Positions 3,623 through 17,039 of a stretch of DNA of 17,881 nt are shown piece by piece. Each line of letters opens with the position of its first letter. Positions within the stretch are counted from its first letter, which is position 1. The position numbers were made by a program, and so were the translations under genes. The DNA comes from Thermoproteota archaeon (GTDB taxonomy: Archaea; Asgardarchaeota; Jordiarchaeia; Jordiarchaeales; Freyrarchaeaceae). Location of the stretch: contig JAPDJY010000010.1 in assembly GCA_029258835.1 (NCBI GenBank), positions 1 through 17,881 of the forward strand, in the 5' to 3' direction. The notes below the pieces were generated by a model, which was not told the origin of the DNA, did no database searches, and saw nothing but the letters and a program-made list of their open reading frames with translations.

Positions 3623-3951
3623 GGTCTCTCCCACCACGCCCTGCGGAACGTCTTGACTCGGACATCGAAACCGAGCGCCCTCAGCGCCTCGATCAACCTC
3701 TGAGTCTTCCACAGCGGCGGCTCGGGGAGCTTGCAGTTCCAGTTGTCGTAGCCGACCCACACGACCTCGGGGCTGACGCTCGCGACGAGACGGATCATCT
3801 CGTCTAAGTCGAAGTCTAGGATCGGCTCGACGATCCCGCGACGTTTGACGTCCAACACGAGCGGGTCGTCGGGTTCAGGGAGGGAGAGGCGCCACTTCGC
3901 GATCGCTGGGTGCGGGACGAGGTCCTCCACCCTGGCGGTCGGGTAGCTCAT
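3619..3951 (-). CDS. Apparent fusion of a ParB/Srx-like N-terminal fragment and a Gp37/Gp68 (DUF5131) radical-SAM-like C-terminal fragment
   Basis: VEDLVPHP...LVLDVKRRGIVEPIL resembles the ParB N-domain. EPILDFDL...PEVVWVGYD...LPEP...LIEALR resembles the DUF5131-like C-terminus. No CxxxCxxC motif. Confidence 0.55.
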   Translation of the reverse strand: MSYPTARVEDLVPHPAIAKWRLSLPEPDDPLVLDVKRRGIVEPILDFDLDEMIRLVASVSPEVVWVGYDNWNCKLPEPPLWKTQRLIEALRALGFDVRVKTFRRAWWERP

Positions 3952-6041: not shown

Positions 6042-6139
6042 GCACCCGAGCGCTCTCGGCTTCCTTAAACGCCTAATGGAAGTCACTTTAAACGTTGAAG
6101 GTAGAGATTTTAGGTAATGGTATCCATTTCTTACCCAGA

Positions 6140-6517
6140 ATGACTACCAAATACGTCACAGTGAAACTACCCAAAGACTTGGCCGACCTCATCGACGAGA
6201 TGCTGGAGAGTAAGTACGCGAAGATGCTCGGTTACACATCGCGTGTGGACATCATACGCGAGGGAATCAAGAGACTACACGACGAGTTCACACATCGAGC
6301 CCTAGTGCACCTGAATACCTTCGAGGATCACTTGGAGATCCTAGACTTCACGGGCGGTCTTCACCGCATAGCGCGGGTGTTCCTGAAAAAGACGGATAAG
6401 GGTGTCAGACTATATTGCGACGTATGCGAAGCATTCCGTTGTCTTCACGTCGAGTTCGCCCGCTCCTTAGAGGATGTGAGGAAACTGAAAGTGACATTCT
6501 TCGAGGAAGAAGGTTAG
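6140..6517 (+). CDS. RHH (CopG/Arc/MetJ) regulator with C-terminal CxxC..CxH zinc-binding domain
   Basis: YVTVKLPKDLADLIDEML...GYTSRVDIIREGI; LYCDVCEAFRCLHVEF. ATG 6140 is preferred over TTG 6095. Confidence 0.8.
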   Translation: MTTKYVTVKLPKDLADLIDEMLESKYAKMLGYTSRVDIIREGIKRLHDEFTHRALVHLNTFEDHLEILDFTGGLHRIARVFLKKTDKGVRLYCDVCEAFRCLHVEFARSLEDVRKLKVTFFEEEG

Positions 6518-6571: not shown

Positions 6572-6700
6572 ATGGTCAAGGTCAAGTGCCACAAGTGCGG
6601 GTACGAGTGGGATTACAAAGGAAGATTGGCAACAGCGACATGCCCTAATTGCAAGTCATCTGTGAGGGTGAGAAAATGGAAGTCTACAGGGTCAAGATAA
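6572..6700 (+). CDS. 42-aa zinc-ribbon microprotein (absent from the ORF track)
   Basis: MVKVKCHKCGYEWDYKGRLATATCPNCKSSVRVRKWKSTGSR; CxxC...CxxC; overlaps the RAMP gene start. Confidence 0.8.
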   Translation: MVKVKCHKCGYEWDYKGRLATATCPNCKSSVRVRKWKSTGSR

Positions 6701-7215
6701 GGGGGACTAGGCCACTCCTCATGCACGCGCCTACCGAGATCGGGGACAAACCCACCCGGCGGAGGGGCGAGCACCTCCCGCCGGAGAAGGAGGCGGAAAT
6801 GTACCTGTACAAGGACGAAGAAGGGCGCATCGTCATCCCAGCGGTCAACATCAAGGCTTGTATACGCGACGCTGGACGGAACTACAAGGTTCGCGGGCGG
6901 AGGACGACCTTCGCGGCTATGATAAGGGCGGGGATAGATATCAGGCCATATCCTTACGTTCCCTTGAAGCACAAAGGCTGGGCCGTAGACTCTAGGCCCG
7001 TCGTCGTGCAGAGACAGCGGATCATCCGCAACCGCCCGCGCTTCGACGAGTGGGAGCTAGAGTTCACGATAGTGAACAAGGATCCGACGGTGATCCACGC
7101 GGACACGCTCAAAAGGATCCTCGAGGATGCAGGCAAGTGGTACGGTCTCGGCGACTTCAGGCCGGAGTTCGGCTTGTTCGAGGTCGTCGAGTTCAAAATA
7201 AAGCAGGAGATCTAA
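6676..7215 (+). CDS. Stand-alone Cas7/RAMP-superfamily-like protein
   Basis: 179 aa from ATG 6676 (GAGGGTGA RBS). RAMP hallmarks in order: YRVKIRGTRPLLMH (beta1), IVIPAVNIKACIRDA (P..S.KG..R-equivalent helix), RPRFDEWELEFTI, and the C-terminal Gly-rich loop GKWYGLGDFRPEFGLFEV. Confidence 0.8.
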   Translation: MEVYRVKIRGTRPLLMHAPTEIGDKPTRRRGEHLPPEKEAEMYLYKDEEGRIVIPAVNIKACIRDAGRNYKVRGRRTTFAAMIRAGIDIRPYPYVPLKHKGWAVDSRPVVVQRQRIIRNRPRFDEWELEFTIVNKDPTVIHADTLKRILEDAGKWYGLGDFRPEFGLFEVVEFKIKQEI

Positions 7216-7223
7216 TACTTTCC

Positions 7224-7323
7224 TGCGTGGCAAGGCTTGGCTGGCTTGGGCGAGGTTTGGCTGGGCGAGGCGCGACACAGCAAGGCTGGGCGAGGTCAGG
7301 CGTGGCAAGGCTTGGCATGGCGA
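7224..7323 (+). repeat. 5-nt-periodic GGY-NN array, candidate non-coding guide RNA for the adjacent RAMP protein
   Basis: 19 in-phase pentamers from 7229 to 7323; 16 begin GGC/GGT (exceptions GCT 7244, GAC 7274, AGC 7279). Preceded by TGC-GT and bracketed by TACTTTC at 7216-7222 and 7326-7332. Confidence 0.85.
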
Positions 7324-7333
7324 GTTACTTTCG

Positions 7334-7438
7334 TTGACAGAAAATGACATACCAGAAGAAACCTACAACTGCGAGCACGTGAGGTTTATCCTCGAGGAGA
7401 AGCCGGAAATAGTGAACGAGATCAAGCGCAGGTTTTGA
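7334..7438 (+). pseudogene. Possible remnant of the C-terminus of an RHH-Zn regulator
   Basis: Frame reads ...YNCEHVRFILEEKPEIVNEIKRRF*, similar to CLHVEFARSLEDVRKL of 6140-6517; only a TTG start is available. Confidence 0.3.
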
Positions 7439-7523
7439 CCAAAATTCACACCCCCTTTTGACTACGTAAAACGGTCATAAGGGTGGGTATTTAGCACATT
7501 CGCATAAGGGGGCCCTTTTGACC
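7433..7523. repeat. Cluster of direct/inverted repeats next to the integrase 3' end (candidate att or recombinase-binding site)
   Basis: CCCTTTTGAC at 7453-7462 and 7513-7522; near-inverse GTCATAAGGG at 7474-7483; CATAAGGG again at 7503-7510; TTTTGACC at 7433-7440. Confidence 0.5.
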
Positions 7524-7528
7524 ACACT

Positions 7529-8800
7529 TTAGAAAGTCCTTCTGACGACGACCTTTCCGCTGTTCAGAGTCGCGACGAAGTCCCACCCATCGGCTAGGTA
7601 AGCAGGGAGATCCTCCTCGCTTATGACTCTCGTTTCTACACTCGCCATGAACCTGCGGAACTTCTCGACGGCCTCGTCGACGCTCTTCGCCCTAGCGAGC
7701 GCCTCCTCGAGCCTCCTGATCTTGTCCTCGCTGAAGCCGAGCAGACGTGCAGTGTCGAGCAATTGCCGCTTCCTCATCTCCTCGGCGCTGAGGTCCTCGA
7801 GTATCGTCAGGAACGGTATCGCTTTCTTATACTCCTCGCGGACCTGCCACTCGGGCGGCCTGAAGTACGACGGGTCGAGCGCGTCGCCGCGATGGCCCAT
7901 CATGAACTCGCGGAAACTCCTCCTCACGCCAGCGACCTCGAGCTGCGTGCGGAAGAACTTGCGGAAGCAGTGTATGTGGATGTCGTAGCGTGGATCCTTA
8001 AGACCCGACAGCCGCCTCAAAGACATGTGCCTCTTCAGCTCGCGCCTGAGGACCTCCTCGAACGTGCGGCCCGTGTACGGCTGGCCGTACTTCGTGACGA
8101 ACAGGTAGCTCTCGGGGAAGAGCTTCTCGCCGCGCTTCTCCCTCTCCGCTAGGTAGAGTTTGAGGAACTTCGCGGCCTCCGGCGTCATAAACGTGTAGTA
8201 CGAGGATCTGGACTTATTGAGGGCCGCCGGAACCGTGATCTTCGGCGGATCCGAGTTAAAGTCGACGTGCTTGAGCTTCAGGCGCGAGAGGGCGCCGACA
8301 CGCAGGCCGGCCGAGCACATCAGCAGGACCGCGGCCTTCTCCTTGAGGCCGAGCGCAGCCAGGAAGTCGCGCAGCTCCTCGCGCGTCGGGATCCTGTCCG
8401 AGTCCTCCCTCGACTCACGCGGGAACTCGAGAAGCGCCGACGGGACCTCGACGCCGTTCTTCCTGAGGAAGGTCTTGACGTAGGGGACGCGGCTGTTCTT
8501 GATCGTCGACGGGGAGACGCCGCGCTCGAAGAATAAGTGGTCGATGTACTCGTTGAGCAGCGCCGCGACGTCGACCTCGCCAGCCTTCGCCTTCGCGACC
8601 AGCTCGCCGGGCCCCATGCCAGCGAATCTGAGGAAGTCCCTCACCGCGTAGAGCGAGACGCGCAGCGACTCGACGCTCCTCGAGCGCTTCCAGACGTACG
8701 CGGCGTACTTGGCGACCTCGGGGCTGTCGAGCATGGGCAAGAGGGCGCGCCCCCTGCCGGCCGCTAGAACCCTCTTCGCGGCTTGGGCTGCGGCTTCCAT
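7529..8800 (-). CDS. int: Tyrosine recombinase/integrase
   Basis: Catalytic set R (AGLRVGAL), K (LNKSR), HxxR (HCFRKFF), H (MMGH), Y (DPSYFRP). SAM-like N-terminal domain and a C-terminal extension ending YLADGWDFVATL.SGKVVVR. Gene is intact. Confidence 0.95.
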   Translation of the reverse strand: MEAAAQAAKRVLAAGRGRALLPMLDSPEVAKYAAYVWKRSRSVESLRVSLYAVRDFLRFAGMGPGELVAKAKAGEVDVAALLNEYIDHLFFERGVSPSTIKNSRVPYVKTFLRKNGVEVPSALLEFPRESREDSDRIPTREELRDFLAALGLKEKAAVLLMCSAGLRVGALSRLKLKHVDFNSDPPKITVPAALNKSRSSYYTFMTPEAAKFLKLYLAEREKRGEKLFPESYLFVTKYGQPYTGRTFEEVLRRELKRHMSLRRLSGLKDPRYDIHIHCFRKFFRTQLEVAGVRRSFREFMMGHRGDALDPSYFRPPEWQVREEYKKAIPFLTILEDLSAEEMRKRQLLDTARLLGFSEDKIRRLEEALARAKSVDEAVEKFRRFMASVETRVISEEDLPAYLADGWDFVATLNSGKVVVRRTF

Positions 8801-9133: not shown

Positions 9134-9997
9134 CTAACCACCGGTAACTTTCAATTTGGGGATCTCGAGGCGCCTTAGGTGCGTGACCTTGAGTTCGACG
9201 CCCTCGGGGAGCTTTATGTTCGCGATCGCGTATTTCTTGCCCCCTCGCATCAGCCTTATCCTATATGTCCGGTCGCTTATGCGCTCTATCTCGCCGTTCT
9301 TCATGATCACCTTAACATAGAGTATGTTAGGTTCTGGTGAGCTGGGGAGTGGGCGCGGCGTCAAGTCTGTCCAGGGCTCCTTCCTCACTCTCGGAAACTT
9401 GACGATCAGAACGTCCTCCTCGAGTTGACATAGGGCCGTGCCTATGCGCTTCTTTCCCTCCTTTCTCAAGAGTGCGAGGTGCTTCAGATAGTTTTTGATG
9501 TGGTTCTTGAGGAAGATGCCGCTCTCCTTGAATATTTTCCTCTCGACGGGGCGCATCGACGTTGCAATCGTGACGTGCGCGTCGCGGAGAAACGTTAGCG
9601 CAGCGCGCGGGTGGTGGAGGACCGTGACTGTCAAGTAGCGGCGCTCCTCGCCCCAAAAGTGCCTGACGTTGGCTATGAAGCGGCAGAGGTCGCGAACCTC
9701 GCGCTCGAGGAAGACCGCAGCGTAAGAGAGGTCGTCGAGGACGAGGGCCACGCGCTTTGCGTCTCTAGGATCGATCGATCTCAAGGTCTTGAGTACGGCT
9801 CCGATAGCATCACCTGAAGGGAGATTTATGTCGTTGACGTTGATGTAGAACGCCGCGTCAGGACGGAACCTCGAGACGAGATACTTCGCTATGTTCGTCT
9901 TCCCGCGTCCCTGCGCCCCGATCACGACAGCGTTAGTGTAAAGATGTTCAGCGAAGACGGACCTTAGAAGGGTGTTGAAAACGCGGCCGCTGGTCAT
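9134..9997 (-). CDS. P-loop ATPase, probably FtsK/HerA/A32/Zot-like genome packaging or extrusion ATPase
   Basis: Walker A VVIGAQGRGKT, Walker B VALVLDD, a later strand TVTVLHHP followed by FLRDA (possible Arg finger). Last gene of the membrane-protein operon. Confidence 0.75.
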   Translation of the reverse strand: MTSGRVFNTLLRSVFAEHLYTNAVVIGAQGRGKTNIAKYLVSRFRPDAAFYINVNDINLPSGDAIGAVLKTLRSIDPRDAKRVALVLDDLSYAAVFLEREVRDLCRFIANVRHFWGEERRYLTVTVLHHPRAALTFLRDAHVTIATSMRPVERKIFKESGIFLKNHIKNYLKHLALLRKEGKKRIGTALCQLEEDVLIVKFPRVRKEPWTDLTPRPLPSSPEPNILYVKVIMKNGEIERISDRTYRIRLMRGGKKYAIANIKLPEGVELKVTHLRRLEIPKLKVTGG

Positions 9998-11585: not shown

Positions 11586-14500
11586 TTATCTCCTCGAGCC
11601 ACGCCTCCCACCCCTGCGTTTGGCGTCAAACTCGTGGAGGGCCTCGACGAAGGACTTGTCGACAGTCACGTTGACCACGACCGGCGGACCTGCGGGCTGC
11701 TTCGGTTTCGGCCGAGCACGGAAGATCTTCATCCCGGTGTAGACGACGATGACGGCGATTACGAAGGCCCCGATGCCGGGCAAGAAGGCCCAGCGGCCAA
11801 TCATATTCGCGATCTCTTGGAGCTGCGCGAAAAAGGCTGCCTCGGTGACCTCGTTGTAGATGTCGAAGTAAAAGCTGGCCTCGCTCTCGAAGCCTTTCGT
11901 GTCGGCCGCCCTGACGATCAGCCTAGCCAGCCCGTTCGGGTACTTCAGCGTGTCGACGGTAATGTCCCAAGGCTCGCTCAAGTTCTTCCACTCGGTCTCA
12001 AAGTCCCACCGCCAGATCGCCCAAGCCACTCCAGCGGGGTCGGATATCGCCAAGTCGATCGTGACGGTCCCGTTGAGCGTGGACCCTTGCGGCGGGCTGT
12101 TCAGCAGGATCGTCGGACCCTGGTTGAAGACCGTGAAGCTGTCGCTGCCGGAGGCGTAAACCCTCTCGAACGCAACGACCTCGGCTGTGACGTCGACGAC
12201 CGTCTCGGCGCCCTGCGGGGCGTCGGGAGCCGTGACGTTCGTCAGGATCGTGGCGTTGTCCAAGACGTGCCAGCTAGCGACGAGCGTCCCGCCCACGTAG
12301 AGGTTTATGTCGGCCTCGAGCGTAGGGACGCAGGTGTAGTTGATTTCGACCGCAACGACATCGCCGGTCTCGAACACGCCGCTCTCGCAAGTTACGATCA
12401 CGCTGACGTTCGTGGTCTCAGGCAGGACTAACTTAAAGAGCGCGTGGCCCGGCGTCGATATCAGCATGTTGTTTATTATGGCGACGTAGGCGTACACCGG
12501 CTCGCTCGCGTTGGCCTCTGTCAGCGTCTCATAAGTCGTGATACTGGTCAGCGATGGGTCTAGGTGCTGCATTTTGATAACGCCGTAGCCGACCGGCGTT
12601 ACCGGTGTGAGGATTTGCCACTCGGCCACGTCCGTCCCGTTGGCCGCTTTAATGTATAGGTAGATCGGCATGTCCGGGGACTCCGGGATCGAAAACGTGA
12701 ACAGGTAGACTAGGTAGTTATTGGGCGCGACCGTTTGGATTATCTCGGCCGTGTCTATTATCCCGTAGTATTCCGCGAAGAGCGTAGCGTTGACGACTAT
12801 CTGCTTTTCGATGGTATCGTAGTTCGTAATCAGCACCGAGATATTGACCGAAAGGCCAGATTGCGTAATGTTGACTGCGGTGATCTCGACGACGCCGACC
12901 TTGACTGCAGGCGAGTATTTGTAGAAAGTGCTAGCCGAGGGCTGCATAAAGTAGAGCGCCCAGTCGTGTTCTCCGACGACGCCCGAGCGCGCGGTAGCGT
13001 TAATCTCCATATCGACGCGCTCTAGCGTCCCGTAGTATTCGATCGTTATGTCTATCGCGTTGATGTAGAGCGTCTTAGACCAATTGTAAACCGCGCCGTC
13101 GATGTCGGTGAAGTTGACTAGGATCACGACGTTTACGTCCGGCATCGTAAAGCTGTAAGACAAAACGGGCGAGCCGGTCGCGTTAAGTTGGTCGTTCAAG
13201 TAGAGATAGAGCGCCTGGCTTACGCGCTCACCGGTGTCGTATGTCACGTCTACGCTGATCGAGACGGAGGTGCCAGACGGGTAGTAGTATTGTTCGGGGT
13301 CGATCGTGACAGCCCAGTTGACCGAGCCGCCAACGAATATCTCCTTTAGCCACGAGTCGCTCTTGACGGCGCCGCCCTTATCGAACGCCAGCGACAGCGA
13401 AATGTTGTGGTGGCCGCTCAGCGTGATGTTGAGCGTCAACGTAGCGGTGCCTCCCGAGTAAGTTGTTCCGTTGGCGACAATGGAATCAACTGGAGTACCG
13501 TTGTAGGTTATCCACGCCTCGACGGTAACGTTGAAAGCTACGTTCTTCTGAGCTATGTCTGGACAGTCTACGCTGTAAGCTATGTCGGTCGCTATTAGAT
13601 CCGAACTGATGATCTCGCCAGCGTAAGTGAAACTGGCGTCGGTCGAATTCGCCTTAATGTAAAACAGCGAATCGGCGGACGGGACTGTGATCGTTATTTG
13701 CGCGACGCCGCTAGCGTCAGTGAAGGCGCTGCCGACTACCGTATCGTTGACCCAGAAAGTGACTTCTTGGCCGGAAATAGGGTCGCCGTGGGGGTCGGCT
13801 AAGGTGACGTTAACGGTAACGGACTCCGACAGCAAGAACACCGAGCGCGGTATGCCGATCGACTGGATCGCATTAAACCAAAAGACTGTCGCGGTGTAGT
13901 TGTAAACCGCGCCGTCGATGTCGGTGAGGTTCGCTAGCACGCTAACGTCGCGGTCTGGCATCGTAAAACTGTGAGTCAAGATGGGGGCACCGCTGGCGAC
14001 CAGAGAGTCATCTAAGTAGAGGTAGACGGTTTGAGCGACCCTCTCGCCGGTGTCGTAGGTGACATCGATGCTAATATCGCAGGTCTGGCCCGTGTACCGG
14101 TACCGGTCGGGATCAAACGTGACATTCCAGTTGACGGAGCCCCCCACGAATACCGTTTTGAGCCAGCTGTCTGACTTCGCAGCGCCGCCCTTGTCGAAAC
14201 TTAACTCTAGCGTCACGTTGTGGTGGCCGCTCAGCGTGATGTTGACCGATATCGTGACCGAGCCGCCCGCGCTGGTCGAGCCGTTAACAGTAATCGTGTC
14301 GACCGGTGACGAATCGTAAGTTATCCACGCCTCAACTGTGATGTCGAAAGCGACATTTTTCTGAGCGATGTCGGGGCAAGTGACTGAGTAGTTTATGTCG
14401 GTCGATATCAGCGCCGACGTGTTCCTCAGACCTGCGTAAAGACCCGACGTGTTAGCACAGACGTAAAACAAGCTGTCGTAGGCTGGCGCAGATACGCTCA

Positions 14501-17039
14501 CGGTGGCGTAGCCTTGTGCGTCGCTCGTCGCCGTCGCCACGAGCGTCTCGTTTATCCAGAAGTCGACTTCCTGGCCAGCGATAGGATCGCCATAAGGGTC
14601 TTTCAGAACTGCGGTGACATTGAAAGTTTCGGAGAGCAGGAAGTATACGCGGTCATACTCAGTCGAAACGTCTACGACCGCGTTGAACGCCTGAGCGAAA
14701 ACAGTGTAGTTGGCACCAGACTCTAGGGCATCGCTCAAGATCACGAGCGAGAAGTGAGTTGCGTTGTAATCCTGCTCGACATAGTCAGTGCCAGCGGTCA
14801 GCAGCACAGGGTCGCCAGTTCCACTTGCAGACTCGGCATAAGCGTATTCGATCGTCGCGGTCGGTTCAGGGTCGGCGTACTTGCGGACGTAAACGTAATC
14901 AACGTAAACGTCGCCGACGTAGTTCGCCCCCCACGTCGCAAACCATATTTCAGCCGGGTCGACGGGAATATTCGTCGTGTGCGTAACCGCGAGCGCGCCA
15001 TCGCGGTAGAGACTTGCCTTGGTACTCGTCCACCACATCTCATCGCGGTGGTAATTCGCTGTGTCGGCATCGACCTGAATCGTCGTGATAGTATACGTCG
15101 TCGAGGTGTCCTTCGTTATGAACTCCCAGTCCGTGTTAGAGTCGTGGTAGTCCGCGACCTCTTGGTTCGCAGCACCCTCCGGGGGCCACAGAGCAAAACC
15201 GACGCATGCGCCCGCGAGCCTCACGCGGGCGCCGACGATGACAGGCGGAGAAAATGTTATCGTCGTGTTCACGCTGCTCCCGTCGGGGACGTATAGCACG
15301 CCGCCTGACTCGCTCACATCCCCATCCGGTTCCCACTTGGAGGTATCTATCGCGCCATCGTCGAAATCGTCGAAGAAGTCGAAGACAGCAGCAGGATCCC
15401 AGTAGGGATTGACGTTCGTGGCATTACCGTAGAATAAGAACAACGTAGTGTTGGCGACATCGTAGTACGTGCCTGCTGCAATCTCTGGTATCCTGACCCA
15501 GCAGTAGCACCAAGACCCATCGACTTGCGTCTCGTTCCACGCGGGTATGCGCTCATATCGCTGCGATGTAGCGTTCCAAATAGCAAATCTGATGTCCGAG
15601 AAGTCGCTGACCATGTTAGCTTGGTAGGTTACGTTAAACCACCTCTGATAGTCAGTCAGCGCGCCGCCAGCGGTATTGTTGATTACGATGGGGATCTTGT
15701 GGGTGAACTCTTCGTAAGTGCCCGTCTCAGGGTCGTAGACTTTGTAAGTTGGCGGGTATTGCGCTGTGACGTTTATGAGATCGTAGCCTTTTGGCAGTAG
15801 GATGTTTAACTCGGGGAAAATGCCGCCAGCTGGGATTTCGTAGTTGAGCACGTCGAAGCGGTAAGTGGCGTTGTCGTCGGAGTAAGCCCAGTAATACCCC
15901 TCGATAAGGTACCATTCTTCGTCTTCCAGCCAGCCGATCACGGCGAAGTTGGTTTCGAGGACTGTGCTAGTCTTCCACGTCGCGCCGTTGTCATAAGATT
16001 CGACGCCGTAGCCATCTGCGTAAGACAGTGCCGAATCGTAAGCTAAGAGCCAGCCGTTACCGGCTCCTACGTCTGTGCCTGCTGGCGCAGCAATGCTCAT
16101 TATGATCGCGTAGTCGCCAGCCTCCAGCTCAGTCGCGCTGGGCAGGTCTAAGCGCACCCACGTCAGCGCGGTGCCTACGGTCCCGTTGTCGATGACCCAG
16201 TAAGCTATCGTCTCGCTGGGGTAGCCCCCTGACGTGCGCGTTAAGTTGACCTCTAAGCCGTAACTGGTCGTGGCTTGCTCAGCTATGTGAACTTCTATCG
16301 CCGAGATCGCAACGCGCTCTGAGATCGTGAAGACCTCGCCATACCAATACTCTCCGACCCTGCTCTCCAGCGTGTTGTCGCTGACATCGAAGCGCGTTAC
16401 ATTGGTCTCAGGCAGCGTGCTGTTGAAATACGCAGTGAAGCCTTGGGTCTCGGCGTAGCCTTCTGTCGATGTCACAGTAGGGTCGATGTCAAAGTTACCT
16501 TCGACGGTCCAGCGGACCAGCCACTTCCCTTTAGCCTTAGCACACGATGGAAGCTTACCGTGCTTAACGGCGTCATCCCACGCGAATACGAACCTAGCGA
16601 CTTCGACCCTGTGAAGCTTCTGCTTAAACTCCTTGCCTTTGGCGTCGATGCGCCACTCGAAAGTCGTGCGCTTCGGCGCGTAGCCTTCGACGGACCACTT
16701 GACCGCTGGCATCACGCTGCTGAAAGACCAGACGAACCTAGCCCAGCCCTGGTCGCGCTTACCTTTGACTAGCTCGACTTCCCAGATCACCTTGTTGCCA
16801 ACGCGCTCTAGGCGCACCGTGCTGTTCAGCTTTGCGCCTTTCAGCCTGAAATCCAGGTTGACCGATACGCCGGTCGCAGGGTCGAAGATGCTGATGTCAC
16901 CGGTCGGAAAGAACTTGAAGACGAAGCCGGTCAGGGGGTGCTGAACTTCGATCGATCTCACTGTCCGGGCCTCGAGGAGCGGGGCGGCCAGCACCACTAC
17001 CAGTACCGTAATCATCAGGAGCGTGGAGGCCCGCCTCAC
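11586..17039 (-). CDS. Giant surface glycoprotein/adhesin (spike): signal peptide, DUF2341, lectin-like and Ig-like repeats, C-terminal TM anchor
   Basis: 1817 aa. DUF2341 motif (IPIVINN...DFSDIRF...WVRIP...LFYGN...VFDFFDDF, ~15350-15700); tandem ~270-aa duplication; Ig-like PTILLNSP...SDPAGV; TM plus basic tail; many N-x-S/T sequons. Confidence 0.9.
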   Translation of the reverse strand: MRRASTLLMITVLVVVLAAPLLEARTVRSIEVQHPLTGFVFKFFPTGDISIFDPATGVSVNLDFRLKGAKLNSTVRLERVGNKVIWEVELVKGKRDQGWARFVWSFSSVMPAVKWSVEGYAPKRTTFEWRIDAKGKEFKQKLHRVEVARFVFAWDDAVKHGKLPSCAKAKGKWLVRWTVEGNFDIDPTVTSTEGYAETQGFTAYFNSTLPETNVTRFDVSDNTLESRVGEYWYGEVFTISERVAISAIEVHIAEQATTSYGLEVNLTRTSGGYPSETIAYWVIDNGTVGTALTWVRLDLPSATELEAGDYAIIMSIAAPAGTDVGAGNGWLLAYDSALSYADGYGVESYDNGATWKTSTVLETNFAVIGWLEDEEWYLIEGYYWAYSDDNATYRFDVLNYEIPAGGIFPELNILLPKGYDLINVTAQYPPTYKVYDPETGTYEEFTHKIPIVINNTAGGALTDYQRWFNVTYQANMVSDFSDIRFAIWNATSQRYERIPAWNETQVDGSWCYCWVRIPEIAAGTYYDVANTTLFLFYGNATNVNPYWDPAAVFDFFDDFDDGAIDTSKWEPDGDVSESGGVLYVPDGSSVNTTITFSPPVIVGARVRLAGACVGFALWPPEGAANQEVADYHDSNTDWEFITKDTSTTYTITTIQVDADTANYHRDEMWWTSTKASLYRDGALAVTHTTNIPVDPAEIWFATWGANYVGDVYVDYVYVRKYADPEPTATIEYAYAESASGTGDPVLLTAGTDYVEQDYNATHFSLVILSDALESGANYTVFAQAFNAVVDVSTEYDRVYFLLSETFNVTAVLKDPYGDPIAGQEVDFWINETLVATATSDAQGYATVSVSAPAYDSLFYVCANTSGLYAGLRNTSALISTDINYSVTCPDIAQKNVAFDITVEAWITYDSSPVDTITVNGSTSAGGSVTISVNITLSGHHNVTLELSFDKGGAAKSDSWLKTVFVGGSVNWNVTFDPDRYRYTGQTCDISIDVTYDTGERVAQTVYLYLDDSLVASGAPILTHSFTMPDRDVSVLANLTDIDGAVYNYTATVFWFNAIQSIGIPRSVFLLSESVTVNVTLADPHGDPISGQEVTFWVNDTVVGSAFTDASGVAQITITVPSADSLFYIKANSTDASFTYAGEIISSDLIATDIAYSVDCPDIAQKNVAFNVTVEAWITYNGTPVDSIVANGTTYSGGTATLTLNITLSGHHNISLSLAFDKGGAVKSDSWLKEIFVGGSVNWAVTIDPEQYYYPSGTSVSISVDVTYDTGERVSQALYLYLNDQLNATGSPVLSYSFTMPDVNVVILVNFTDIDGAVYNWSKTLYINAIDITIEYYGTLERVDMEINATARSGVVGEHDWALYFMQPSASTFYKYSPAVKVGVVEITAVNITQSGLSVNISVLITNYDTIEKQIVVNATLFAEYYGIIDTAEIIQTVAPNNYLVYLFTFSIPESPDMPIYLYIKAANGTDVAEWQILTPVTPVGYGVIKMQHLDPSLTSITTYETLTEANASEPVYAYVAIINNMLISTPGHALFKLVLPETTNVSVIVTCESGVFETGDVVAVEINYTCVPTLEADINLYVGGTLVASWHVLDNATILTNVTAPDAPQGAETVVDVTAEVVAFERVYASGSDSFTVFNQGPTILLNSPPQGSTLNGTVTIDLAISDPAGVAWAIWRWDFETEWKNLSEPWDITVDTLKYPNGLARLIVRAADTKGFESEASFYFDIYNEVTEAAFFAQLQEIANMIGRWAFLPGIGAFVIAVIVVYTGMKIFRARPKPKQPAGPPVVVNVTVDKSFVEALHEFDAKRRGGRRGSRR
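13060..14690 (-). repeat. Intragenic tandem duplication (~810-nt unit x2)
   Basis: Protein repeats FLLSE...CPDIAQKNVAF...ITLSGHHN...TDIDGAVYN. Identical DNA blocks at 13084-13111/13900-13927 (28 bp) and 13404-13432/14217-14245 (29 bp). Confidence 0.9.

What the first reader, a model, noticed from the sequence alone, without database searches (positions are those of the whole stretch)
7216..7332. Decoding the array: 20 variable dinucleotides, phase kept through imperfect units, in-phase flanking repeats
NN read 5'->3': GT AA TT TG TG GA TT TG GA GC AC AA TG GA CA GT AA TT AT GA. The phase is never lost, even at the three non-GGY units, which argues for selection on period rather than slippage. 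The NN are AT-richer than the ~60% GC element, hinting at a foreign or promoter target. A 17-bp block GCGTGGCAAGGCTTGGC repeats at 7225-7241 and 7300-7316 (15 units apart), and TG-GA recurs three times, suggesting growth by unit duplication/recombination. TACTTTC flanks both ends exactly 110 nt (22 periods) apart and may mark processing or exchange boundaries. The GAC/AGC units at 7274-7283 could separate two guides. If one target base is skipped per unit, the guide would read codon positions 1-2 and ignore wobble.
Basis: partly seen in the sequence, partly recalled or inferred. Interest (0 to 1): 0.8.

Follow-up and report, generated by a model that had tools for sequence, protein, structure and literature searches.

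The report
VIPR guide RNA, archaeal mobile element
The five-base repeat array is the guide RNA gene of a VIPR system, a CRISPR-related, RNA-guided DNA-silencing system of viruses first described in 2026 preprints, so it is a new archaeal example of a known kind, and its code most resembles the regulator gene next door.

Summary
This is already in print as the VIPR system (bioRxiv 10.64898/2026.04.26.720920 and .720927). The 179-aa gene ending 13 nt before the first GGC unit is a Vipr protein. It matches the solved SUSP1 Vipr (PDB 36pp) at profile E 6e-28, keeps the GGY-binding residues and has a Cas7-like fold. In about 100 related loci the GGY positions are near-invariant and the NN positions carry about 0 bits. 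Guides from those loci hit rival elements only under the 1-nt skip rule (26 strong hits, against 2, 0 and 0 for other spacings). For this window's guide I found no target at 80% or more in its own genome, in IMG/VR seeds or in 400 genomes of the phylum. Its best match is in frame in the neighbouring RHH/zinc-finger gene (25/40). That resembles the 63-76% 'self' matches of relatives whose rivals match at 80-93%, so I infer that the target is a rival allele of that gene. The TACTTTC flanks and the 'two guides' idea are not supported. This scan has already met VIPR in at least 53 other genomes.

The parts
6676..7215 (+). vipr gene: 179-aa single-RRM RAMP (Cas7-like) protein that should bind one GGY per protomer
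   Evidence: Matches PDB 36pp 'SUSP1 Vipr protein' at profile E 6.2e-28 and single-sequence E 3.8e-12. H17, R120, D160, F161 and R162 align with SUSP1 H17, R138, D177, W178 and R179. The AF2 model has pLDDT 94.8. Top Foldseek hits are Csm3, Cmr4 and type VII Cas7. There are more than 670 close homologs and 4184 clusters at 50% identity.
7195..7203 (+). Candidate archaeal TATA-like box (AAAATAAAG) for the vrRNA, inside the 3' end of vipr
   Evidence: It lies 26-34 nt upstream of the first GGC. Relatives carry TTTAAATA or TTTATAAA at the same distance from their first unit. This is inferred and was not mapped.
7224..7323 (+). vrRNA repeat tract: 20 pentamers (GGY + NN); canonical units run from 7229
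   Evidence: It is the only such array in the assembly.
7274..7283 (+). Two degenerate units (GAC-AC, AGC-AA) that keep the phase
   Evidence: Internal degeneracy of vrRNAs is noted in the discovery paper. In relatives such units pair with targets.
7320..7334 (+). Small 5-bp hairpin formed by the last unit and the 3' TACTTTC copy; a possible minimal 3' end
   Evidence: The fold is weak overall (z -1.9). No conserved tail is seen in relatives, which mostly end in T-runs.
6404..6463 (+). Best 1-nt-skip match of the guide on its own contig (25/40), in frame, inside the neighbouring gene; read as the spared 'self' copy of the target site
   Evidence: shuffles: P about 0.012-0.015. Peptide-level scan: score 70 against 54 for the next site, and 0 of 40 shuffles reach 70.
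6095..6517 (+). RHH/CopG-like protein with a C-terminal C-x2-C-x4-C-x-H motif; candidate target-gene family and possible accessory DNA-binding gene
   Evidence: Pfam RHH_1 E 7e-4, below the cut-off. phrog_38461 E 4.6e-7. No homolog was found elsewhere.

Best explanation
The array is the gene for a VIPR guide RNA (vrRNA), and the gene just upstream encodes its Vipr protein. By homology with the SUSP1 system, one Vipr protomer binds each pentamer. It buries the GGY triplet and presents the two NN bases. The filament then pairs its 20 dinucleotides with double-stranded DNA in which every third base is skipped, a 59-bp footprint, and blocks transcription of a competing mobile element. Shown here: family membership of the protein, the architecture and uniqueness of the array, hypervariability of NN, and the 1-nt skip rule in archaeal relatives, with the skipped base on the codon wobble position. 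Inferred: that this particular RNA is made from its own TATA-like promoter, that it is loaded on Vipr, and that it silences a target. Also inferred, with moderate support: the target is a rival element's allele of the RHH/zinc-finger regulator gene that lies next to vipr, while the element's own copy is spared because 15 of 40 guide bases mismatch.
For: Protein: it matches the solved SUSP1 Vipr, the GGY-contact residues are conserved, the model is confident and the fold is Cas7-like. Pfam, NCBIfam and PADLOC have no model for it, as expected for a family described in 2026. Array: in-phase GGY arrays lie beside the homolog in most of 104 loci, including 26-32% identical bacterial and phage loci. 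Over 2348 units, GGY carries 1.7, 1.65 and 1.03 bits and NN carries 0.06 and 0.03 bits, and this window's NN string is unrelated to all others. Code: 10-unit sub-guides from 107 arrays, scanned against the loci, gave 26 hits of 18/20 or better with a 1-nt skip, against 2, 0 and 0 with skips of 0, 2 and 4. The matches run for 15-24 units. In all 4 sites checked the skipped base is codon position 3, and sites occur on either strand. Promoter-like boxes and T-rich ends flank the arrays of relatives. Target class: the guide's best site on its contig is in frame in the adjacent gene (25/40, next best 22, shuffle P about 0.012-0.015). The fully matched units are the Cys, His and other conserved-looking residues of a zinc-finger-like motif. 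At peptide level that site is the top hit in six frames of the 2.7-Mb assembly plus the 104 related loci (about 0.4 Mb). Relatives show the same split: rival orthologous sites match at 80-93% and their own orthologous sites at 63-76%. Published experiments support the mechanism for the family.
Against: I found no natural target at 80% NN match or more for this guide. Nothing here shows that the RNA is made or bound. There is no conserved 3' tail or pseudoknot like that of type II vrRNAs. Four of the 20 units are degenerate. No accessory (vap) gene is shared with relatives: the window's neighbours have no homologs in the other loci. The self-site argument rests on one site with P about 0.01 and on an orphan gene, so the predicted target family cannot be checked against a real rival.
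Confidence: 0.93

Rival explanations
1. The array is a protein-binding RNA of the TRAP type. The neighbouring protein binds the GGY triplets for regulation or packaging, and the NN bases are unconstrained spacers that carry no information.
For: NN has almost no sequence conservation, as spacers would. No target was found for this window's guide.
Against: In relatives the NN strings match foreign genes over 15-24 consecutive units, only under one spacing rule and always with the skipped base on the wobble position. Spacers could not do this. Published reprogramming experiments show that NN sets the specificity.
Confidence: 0.03
2. The guide acts on its own element. The 25/40 match in the adjacent RHH/zinc-finger gene is a real, weak self-target used for autoregulation, not a spared self copy.
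For: The best site on the contig is in the adjacent gene and in frame.
Against: The discovery paper found no self hit at 80% or more and reports that disturbing NN pairing abolishes silencing. Relatives also have 63-76% self matches while true rival matches reach 80-93%.
Confidence: 0.04
3. The array is a slippage-generated microsatellite, or part of a Gly/Ala/Trp-rich coding sequence (ORF 7050-7337), with no RNA function.
For: An ORF of 95 codons spans the array. Internal duplication of a 17-nt block suggests repeat dynamics.
Against: A 5-nt period is incompatible with a coding constraint. The ORF overlaps vipr in another frame. The array is unique in 2.7 Mb, yet it is conserved beside vipr across distant lineages, on either side of the gene and in either orientation.
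Confidence: 0.005

Closest known systems
VIPR systems (Vipr protein + vrRNA), best studied in Escherichia phage SUSP1 and a Pseudomonas fulva prophage (type II); bioRxiv 10.64898/2026.04.26.720920, .720927, 10.64898/2026.10.15.759431
   Same: It has a small single-RRM RAMP protein homologous to SUSP1 Vipr, with the GGY-contact residues kept. It has a tandem GGY/NN pentamer RNA gene next to that gene. NN is hypervariable. In its clade the 1-nt skip code falls on the codon wobble position, and the targets are closely related rival elements. No cas genes or CRISPR array were seen in the window. It sits on a mobile element with an integrase.
   Different: The context is archaeal and hydrothermal. 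There is a single vrRNA of 20 units, against the 9-16 reported for the SUSP1 and P. fulva clades. It lies directly after the vipr stop, with a TATA-like box inside the vipr 3' end. It has no conserved 3' tail or pseudoknot. No accessory gene is shared with relatives. Relatives carry uninterrupted arrays of up to 65 units that hold several guides. I could not assign one of the seven published types, because the type tables are not in the text I could read.
Cas7-family backbone subunits of class 1 CRISPR effectors (Csm3, Cmr4, type VII Cas7)
   Same: [quoted passage not shown] Both form a filament along a guide RNA with periodic base flipping.
   Different: Each subunit covers 5 nt of RNA and 3 nt of target, not 6 and 6. 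The scaffold triplet is read sequence-specifically. There is no repeat-spacer array, no Cas6, Cas5 or large subunit, and no adaptation genes.
TRAP (trp RNA-binding attenuation protein) and its (G/U)AG-NN repeat RNA
   Same: Both involve an RNA with a fixed triplet and a 2-nt variable spacer, bound at one subunit per repeat.
   Different: The fold is unrelated. TRAP forms a ring and not a filament, and in TRAP the spacers carry no information. This comparison comes from my own knowledge and was not tested.

Membership tests
VIPR system | Vipr protein: a minimal RAMP (one RRM, G-loop, thumb) homologous to characterised Vipr | tested here: met
   PDB 36pp SUSP1 Vipr matches at E 6.2e-28 (profile) and 3.8e-12 (single sequence) over nearly the full length. 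The AF2 model has pLDDT 94.8. The fold is Cas7-like.
VIPR system | Residues that hold G1, G2 and Y3 (SUSP1 H17, R138, D177, W178, R179) | tested here: met
   The alignment gives H17, R120, D160, F161 (aromatic in place of W) and R162. R120 is invariant, and D160 and R162 are at least 90% conserved in 75 diverse homologs.
VIPR system | vrRNA gene: tandem YNNGG/GGY-NN pentamers (4 or more units) in the intergenic DNA beside vipr | tested here: met
   There are 20 in-phase units at 7224-7323, starting 9 nt after the vipr stop.
VIPR system | GGY conserved and NN hypervariable among homologous loci | tested here: met
   Information content is 1.71, 1.65 and 1.03 bits for G, G and Y, against 0.06 and 0.03 bits for NN, over 2348 units. 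The GGY figure is inflated by how the arrays were found. The window's NN string has no relative.
VIPR system | NN string matches foreign DNA under the 1-nt skip rule (80% or more) | tested here: inconclusive
   The feature is met for the clade. It was not found for this window's guide in its own genome (27/40, equal to shuffles), in IMG/VR seeds or in 400 genomes.
VIPR system | No self-target at 80% or more on the source contig | tested here: met
   The best site on the contig is 25/40, or 62.5%.
VIPR system | vrRNA expressed as a discrete RNA of about 100 nt and bound by Vipr | not testable with these tools
   No sequencing run was listed. Promoter-like and T-rich signals in relatives are only suggestive.
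VIPR system | Accessory vap gene beside vipr (typical, not universal) | tested here: inconclusive
   An RHH-like DNA-binding gene lies upstream, but it has no homolog in the other loci. Some relatives instead share a 62-aa ORF overlapping the vipr start.
Class 1 CRISPR-Cas effector | CRISPR repeat-spacer array and further cas genes (cas5, cas6, large subunit, cas1/2) | tested here: not met
   There is no repeat-spacer family in the window. Of the 11 window ORFs scanned, the only family matches above a cut-off are phage integrase (Pfam) and the two PHROGs hits; the rest are sub-threshold (RHH_1, AAA_14, DUF815, Ribosomal_L37ae; NCBIfam Xer-type recombinases). Only some ORFs of the window were scanned.

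The most novel reading that the evidence does not exclude
In this archaeal clade VIPR works as an allele-discriminating exclusion system between near-identical elements. Guides are written against the rival's version of genes that the carrier also has. Own copies are held at about 62-76% NN match and rival copies at 80-93%. On this reading, the window's single 20-unit guide is aimed at a rival allele of the zinc-finger motif of the RHH regulator next to vipr, a gene that is so far an orphan. The idea is partly anticipated in print: satellites target related satellites, and solo guides target relatives' vipr.
Probability: 0.4. Interest if true: 0.5.

Novelty: new member of a known kind. Interest (0 to 1): 0.33.

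Why it matters
[quoted passage not shown] It has already been described, and this scan has met it many times. This locus adds an archaeal example in a minimal form: one protein and one 20-unit guide, with no tail and no shared accessory gene. The analysis also gives an independent bioinformatic replication of the 1-nt skip and wobble rule in archaeal virus-like elements from hydrothermal metagenomes. Finally, it offers a testable pattern: guides match rivals' alleles of shared genes at 80-93% and the carrier's own alleles at 63-76%. That pattern suggests how self is spared without a PAM.

Tried and rejected
1. Rfam at gathering threshold found no family in the window, and ARAGORN found no tRNA.

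2. Target search for this guide.
- Own 2.72-Mb assembly with skips of 0-3: maximum 27/40 under the 1-nt skip, equal to shuffled guides. The only 40/40 was the array itself, under skip 3.
- Sliding windows of 8-20 units over the genome plus 104 loci: at background.
- IMG/VR exact 8-unit gapped seeds starting at units 1, 4, 7, 10 and 13 gave 88 seeds. All extended at chance level. The best was L109 at 28/40, an unrelated contig of 42% G+C.
- 14-unit patterns with up to 3 mismatches in 400 genomes of the phylum: 0 hits.

3. Ortholog of the RHH/zinc-finger gene. None was found in the 5.8-billion protein word index, in 40 relatives searched in six frames or in the related loci. An IMG/VR pattern built from the units shared by the guide and the window's own gene gave one hit, which is non-coding and a chance match.

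4. Sequencing runs: none was listed for the DNA, and no RNA holder was listed.

5. RNA fold of the array: only weak G-C/G-U pairing, z -1.9. I dropped the structured-RNA and G-quadruplex ideas once the family was identified.

6. TACTTTC as a general boundary motif: at chance level and not conserved.

7. My first working idea, a TRAP-like or centromere-like protein-binding array, was replaced.

8. A first literature search on pentanucleotide repeats found nothing relevant.

Full report
**Observation.** Reading 6900-7700 confirms the finding base for base. From 7224 to 7323 the + strand consists of 20 pentamers in one phase. Sixteen are GGC or GGT followed by two variable bases. The four degenerate units (TGC, GCT, GAC, AGC) do not shift the phase. 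The NN list, the 17-nt block at 7225-7241 and 7300-7316, the three TG-GA pairs and the two TACTTTC copies 110 nt apart are all present. The NN bases are 35% G+C in a window of 58%. The window is a whole contig of a 2.72-Mb, 91-contig assembly. A scan of both strands of that assembly for 6 or more in-phase GGY units returns only this array, so chance is excluded.

**What it is.** The ORF that ends at 7215 (6676-7215, 179 aa) had no Pfam, NCBIfam or PADLOC family and only an unnamed PHROG. It nevertheless has more than 670 close homologs in metagenomes and 4184 clusters at 50% identity in the large representative library. I fetched 19 viral, 4 genomic and 80 metagenomic loci that encode homologs. 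Most of them carry the same in-phase GGY arrays next to the gene. The arrays lie upstream or downstream, on either strand, with 9 to 65 units. This holds even in loci whose protein is only 26-32% identical, including a Thiodictyon contig.

A profile of 75 homologs then matched one solved structure, PDB 36pp 'SUSP1 Vipr protein', at E 6.2e-28. The window's protein alone matched it at 3.8e-12. [quoted passage not shown] These consist of a minimal RAMP protein, Vipr, and vrRNAs made of alternating GGY and NN. The NN dinucleotides pair with DNA in which every third base is skipped. The targets are competing phages and satellites, and the skipped base usually falls on the codon wobble position.

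**Membership.**
- The alignment to SUSP1 Vipr covers almost the full length.
- It places H17, R120, D160, F161 and R162 opposite the residues that the cryo-EM paper reports as holding G1, G2 and Y3: H17, R138, D177, W178 and R179.
- R120 is invariant across the 75 homologs, and D160 and R162 are at least 90% conserved.
- The AlphaFold model is confident, with pLDDT 94.8.
- Its nearest solved folds in the Foldseek copy are Csm3, Cmr4 and type VII Cas7 backbone subunits.
- No CRISPR array or cas gene was seen in the window.

**The code, tested independently.** Over 2348 units from 107 distinct arrays, the three scaffold positions carry 1.71, 1.65 and 1.03 bits and the two NN positions carry 0.06 and 0.03 bits. 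The window's NN string resembles none of the others.

I cut all arrays into 10-unit sub-guides and scanned the fetched loci on both strands with 0, 1, 2 or 4 skipped bases. Hits of 18/20 or better numbered 2, 26, 0 and 0. The 1-nt-skip hits extend to 15-24 consecutive units. They show that the 42-unit arrays of L055 and L057 hold two guides against two genes of L096/L097/L098. L061 hits a third gene there, and L069 and L072 hit L074. In all four sites examined the skipped base is codon position 3, and the guide-like strand is the coding strand in three and the template strand in one.

The carriers and the targets are close relatives that share the targeted genes at 55-95% protein identity. The guides match the rival's site at 80-93% and the orthologous site in their own element at only 63-76%.

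**This window's guide.** No site reaches the published 80% threshold.
- Own assembly: best 27/40, the same as shuffled guides.
- Exact 8-unit seeds across IMG/VR: all 88 extend at chance level.
- 14-unit patterns with up to 3 mismatches in 400 genomes of the phylum: no hit.

Earlier notes of this scan prompted me to read the guide as codons. It spells V-[KN]-[FL]-[CW]-[CW]-[DE]-[FL]-[CW]-[DE]-A-T-[KN]-[CW]-[DE]-[HQ]-V-[KN]-[FL]-[IM]-[DE]. In a six-frame BLOSUM scan of the assembly and the loci, the top site is 6404-6463, inside the gene immediately upstream of vipr. It scores 70 against 54 for the next site, and none of 40 shuffled guides reaches 70.

At nucleotide level this site is the best on the contig, at 25/40 against 22 for the next. 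The probability from shuffles is 0.012-0.015. The site is in frame with the skipped base on the wobble position. The ten fully matched units are V, C, D, C, E, A, C, H, V and F of a C-x2-C-x4-C-x-H motif, and several of the others are conservative replacements.

The gene encodes an RHH/CopG-like protein. A 62.5% match at the carrier's own orthologous site is what the relatives show. I therefore infer that the real target is a rival element's allele of this regulator gene. I could not confirm this, because the gene has no detectable homolog in any collection I could still search.

**Transcription signals.** In relatives, a TTTAAATA or TTTATAAA box lies about 30-38 nt before the first unit, and a T-run usually follows the last unit. 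The window has AAAATAAAG at 7195-7203, at the same distance and inside the vipr 3' end. It has no clear T-run. The last unit and the 3' TACTTTC can form a 5-bp hairpin. There is no conserved tail like the type II pseudoknot. None of this is mapped, because no sequencing run was listed.

**Side claims.**
- A shared 7-mer or longer in the two flanks of an array occurs in 5.6% of mismatched flank pairs. Among single arrays of relatives no common motif appears. TACTTTC as a boundary signal is therefore unsupported.
- Degenerate units in L055, L057 and L061 lie inside matched stretches. They do not mark guide borders there, so the window's array may be one 20-unit guide.
- The AT-richness of NN fits codon positions 1-2 in a GC-rich setting.

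**Verdict.** This scan has also recorded VIPR in at least 53 other genomes. The locus is a new archaeal member of a known kind. The modest new content is the independent replication of the code in archaeal elements, the self-versus-rival match pattern, and a predicted but unverified target gene.

Noticed in passing
L055, L057, L061 versus L096, L097, L098 (for example L096:1070-1122, 2098-2168, 3677-3723): Closely related elements share flanking genes at 55-95% protein identity. The guide-bearing ones match three different genes of the others at 80-93% NN and their own orthologous sites at 63-76%. L096/97/98 have vipr, but only a short, degenerate in-phase GG run was found near it.
   Followed up: partly
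L069:248-570 (-), L050:2449-2932 (+), L044:226-730 (+): Archaeal-clade arrays reach 58-65 uninterrupted units, or are joined by 6-nt AAGCAT/AAGCGT linkers that shift the phase by one. They hold several guides without hairpin spacers. This may be the 'staggered array' form mentioned in the preprint.
   Followed up: partly
L021:465-577 (-) and L021:1355-1432 (+): An Aenigmatarchaeota contig has two arrays in inverted orientation flanking vipr.
   Followed up: no
L009:3590-4160, L011:3640-4352, L024:2581-2955: Bacterial and phage relatives carry 3-8 arrays of 12-20 units separated by a conserved linker of 30-60 nt, like an inverted CRISPR layout. This fits the published type II tail architecture.
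   Followed up: no
L096:2813-3001 and 26 other loci: A conserved ORF of about 60 aa ends at or overlaps the vipr start in many archaeal loci and may be their accessory gene. It has no homolog in the window.
   Followed up: partly
window:6095-6517 and the other genes of the window: Apart from vipr, none of the window's neighbouring genes has a homolog in the ~100 related loci. The vipr-vrRNA pair therefore behaves as a cassette that moves between unrelated elements. The RHH/zinc-finger gene is an orphan in a 5.8-billion protein index.
   Followed up: partly
window:7529-8800 (-), 9134-9997 (-), 11586-17039 (-): A tyrosine integrase (XerA-like), a weak P-loop ATPase and a 1817-aa ORF with no family match suggest an integrating virus or plasmid. 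The 1817-aa ORF has an internal 176-nt direct repeat (13084-13259 and 13900-14075, 71% identity).
   Followed up: no
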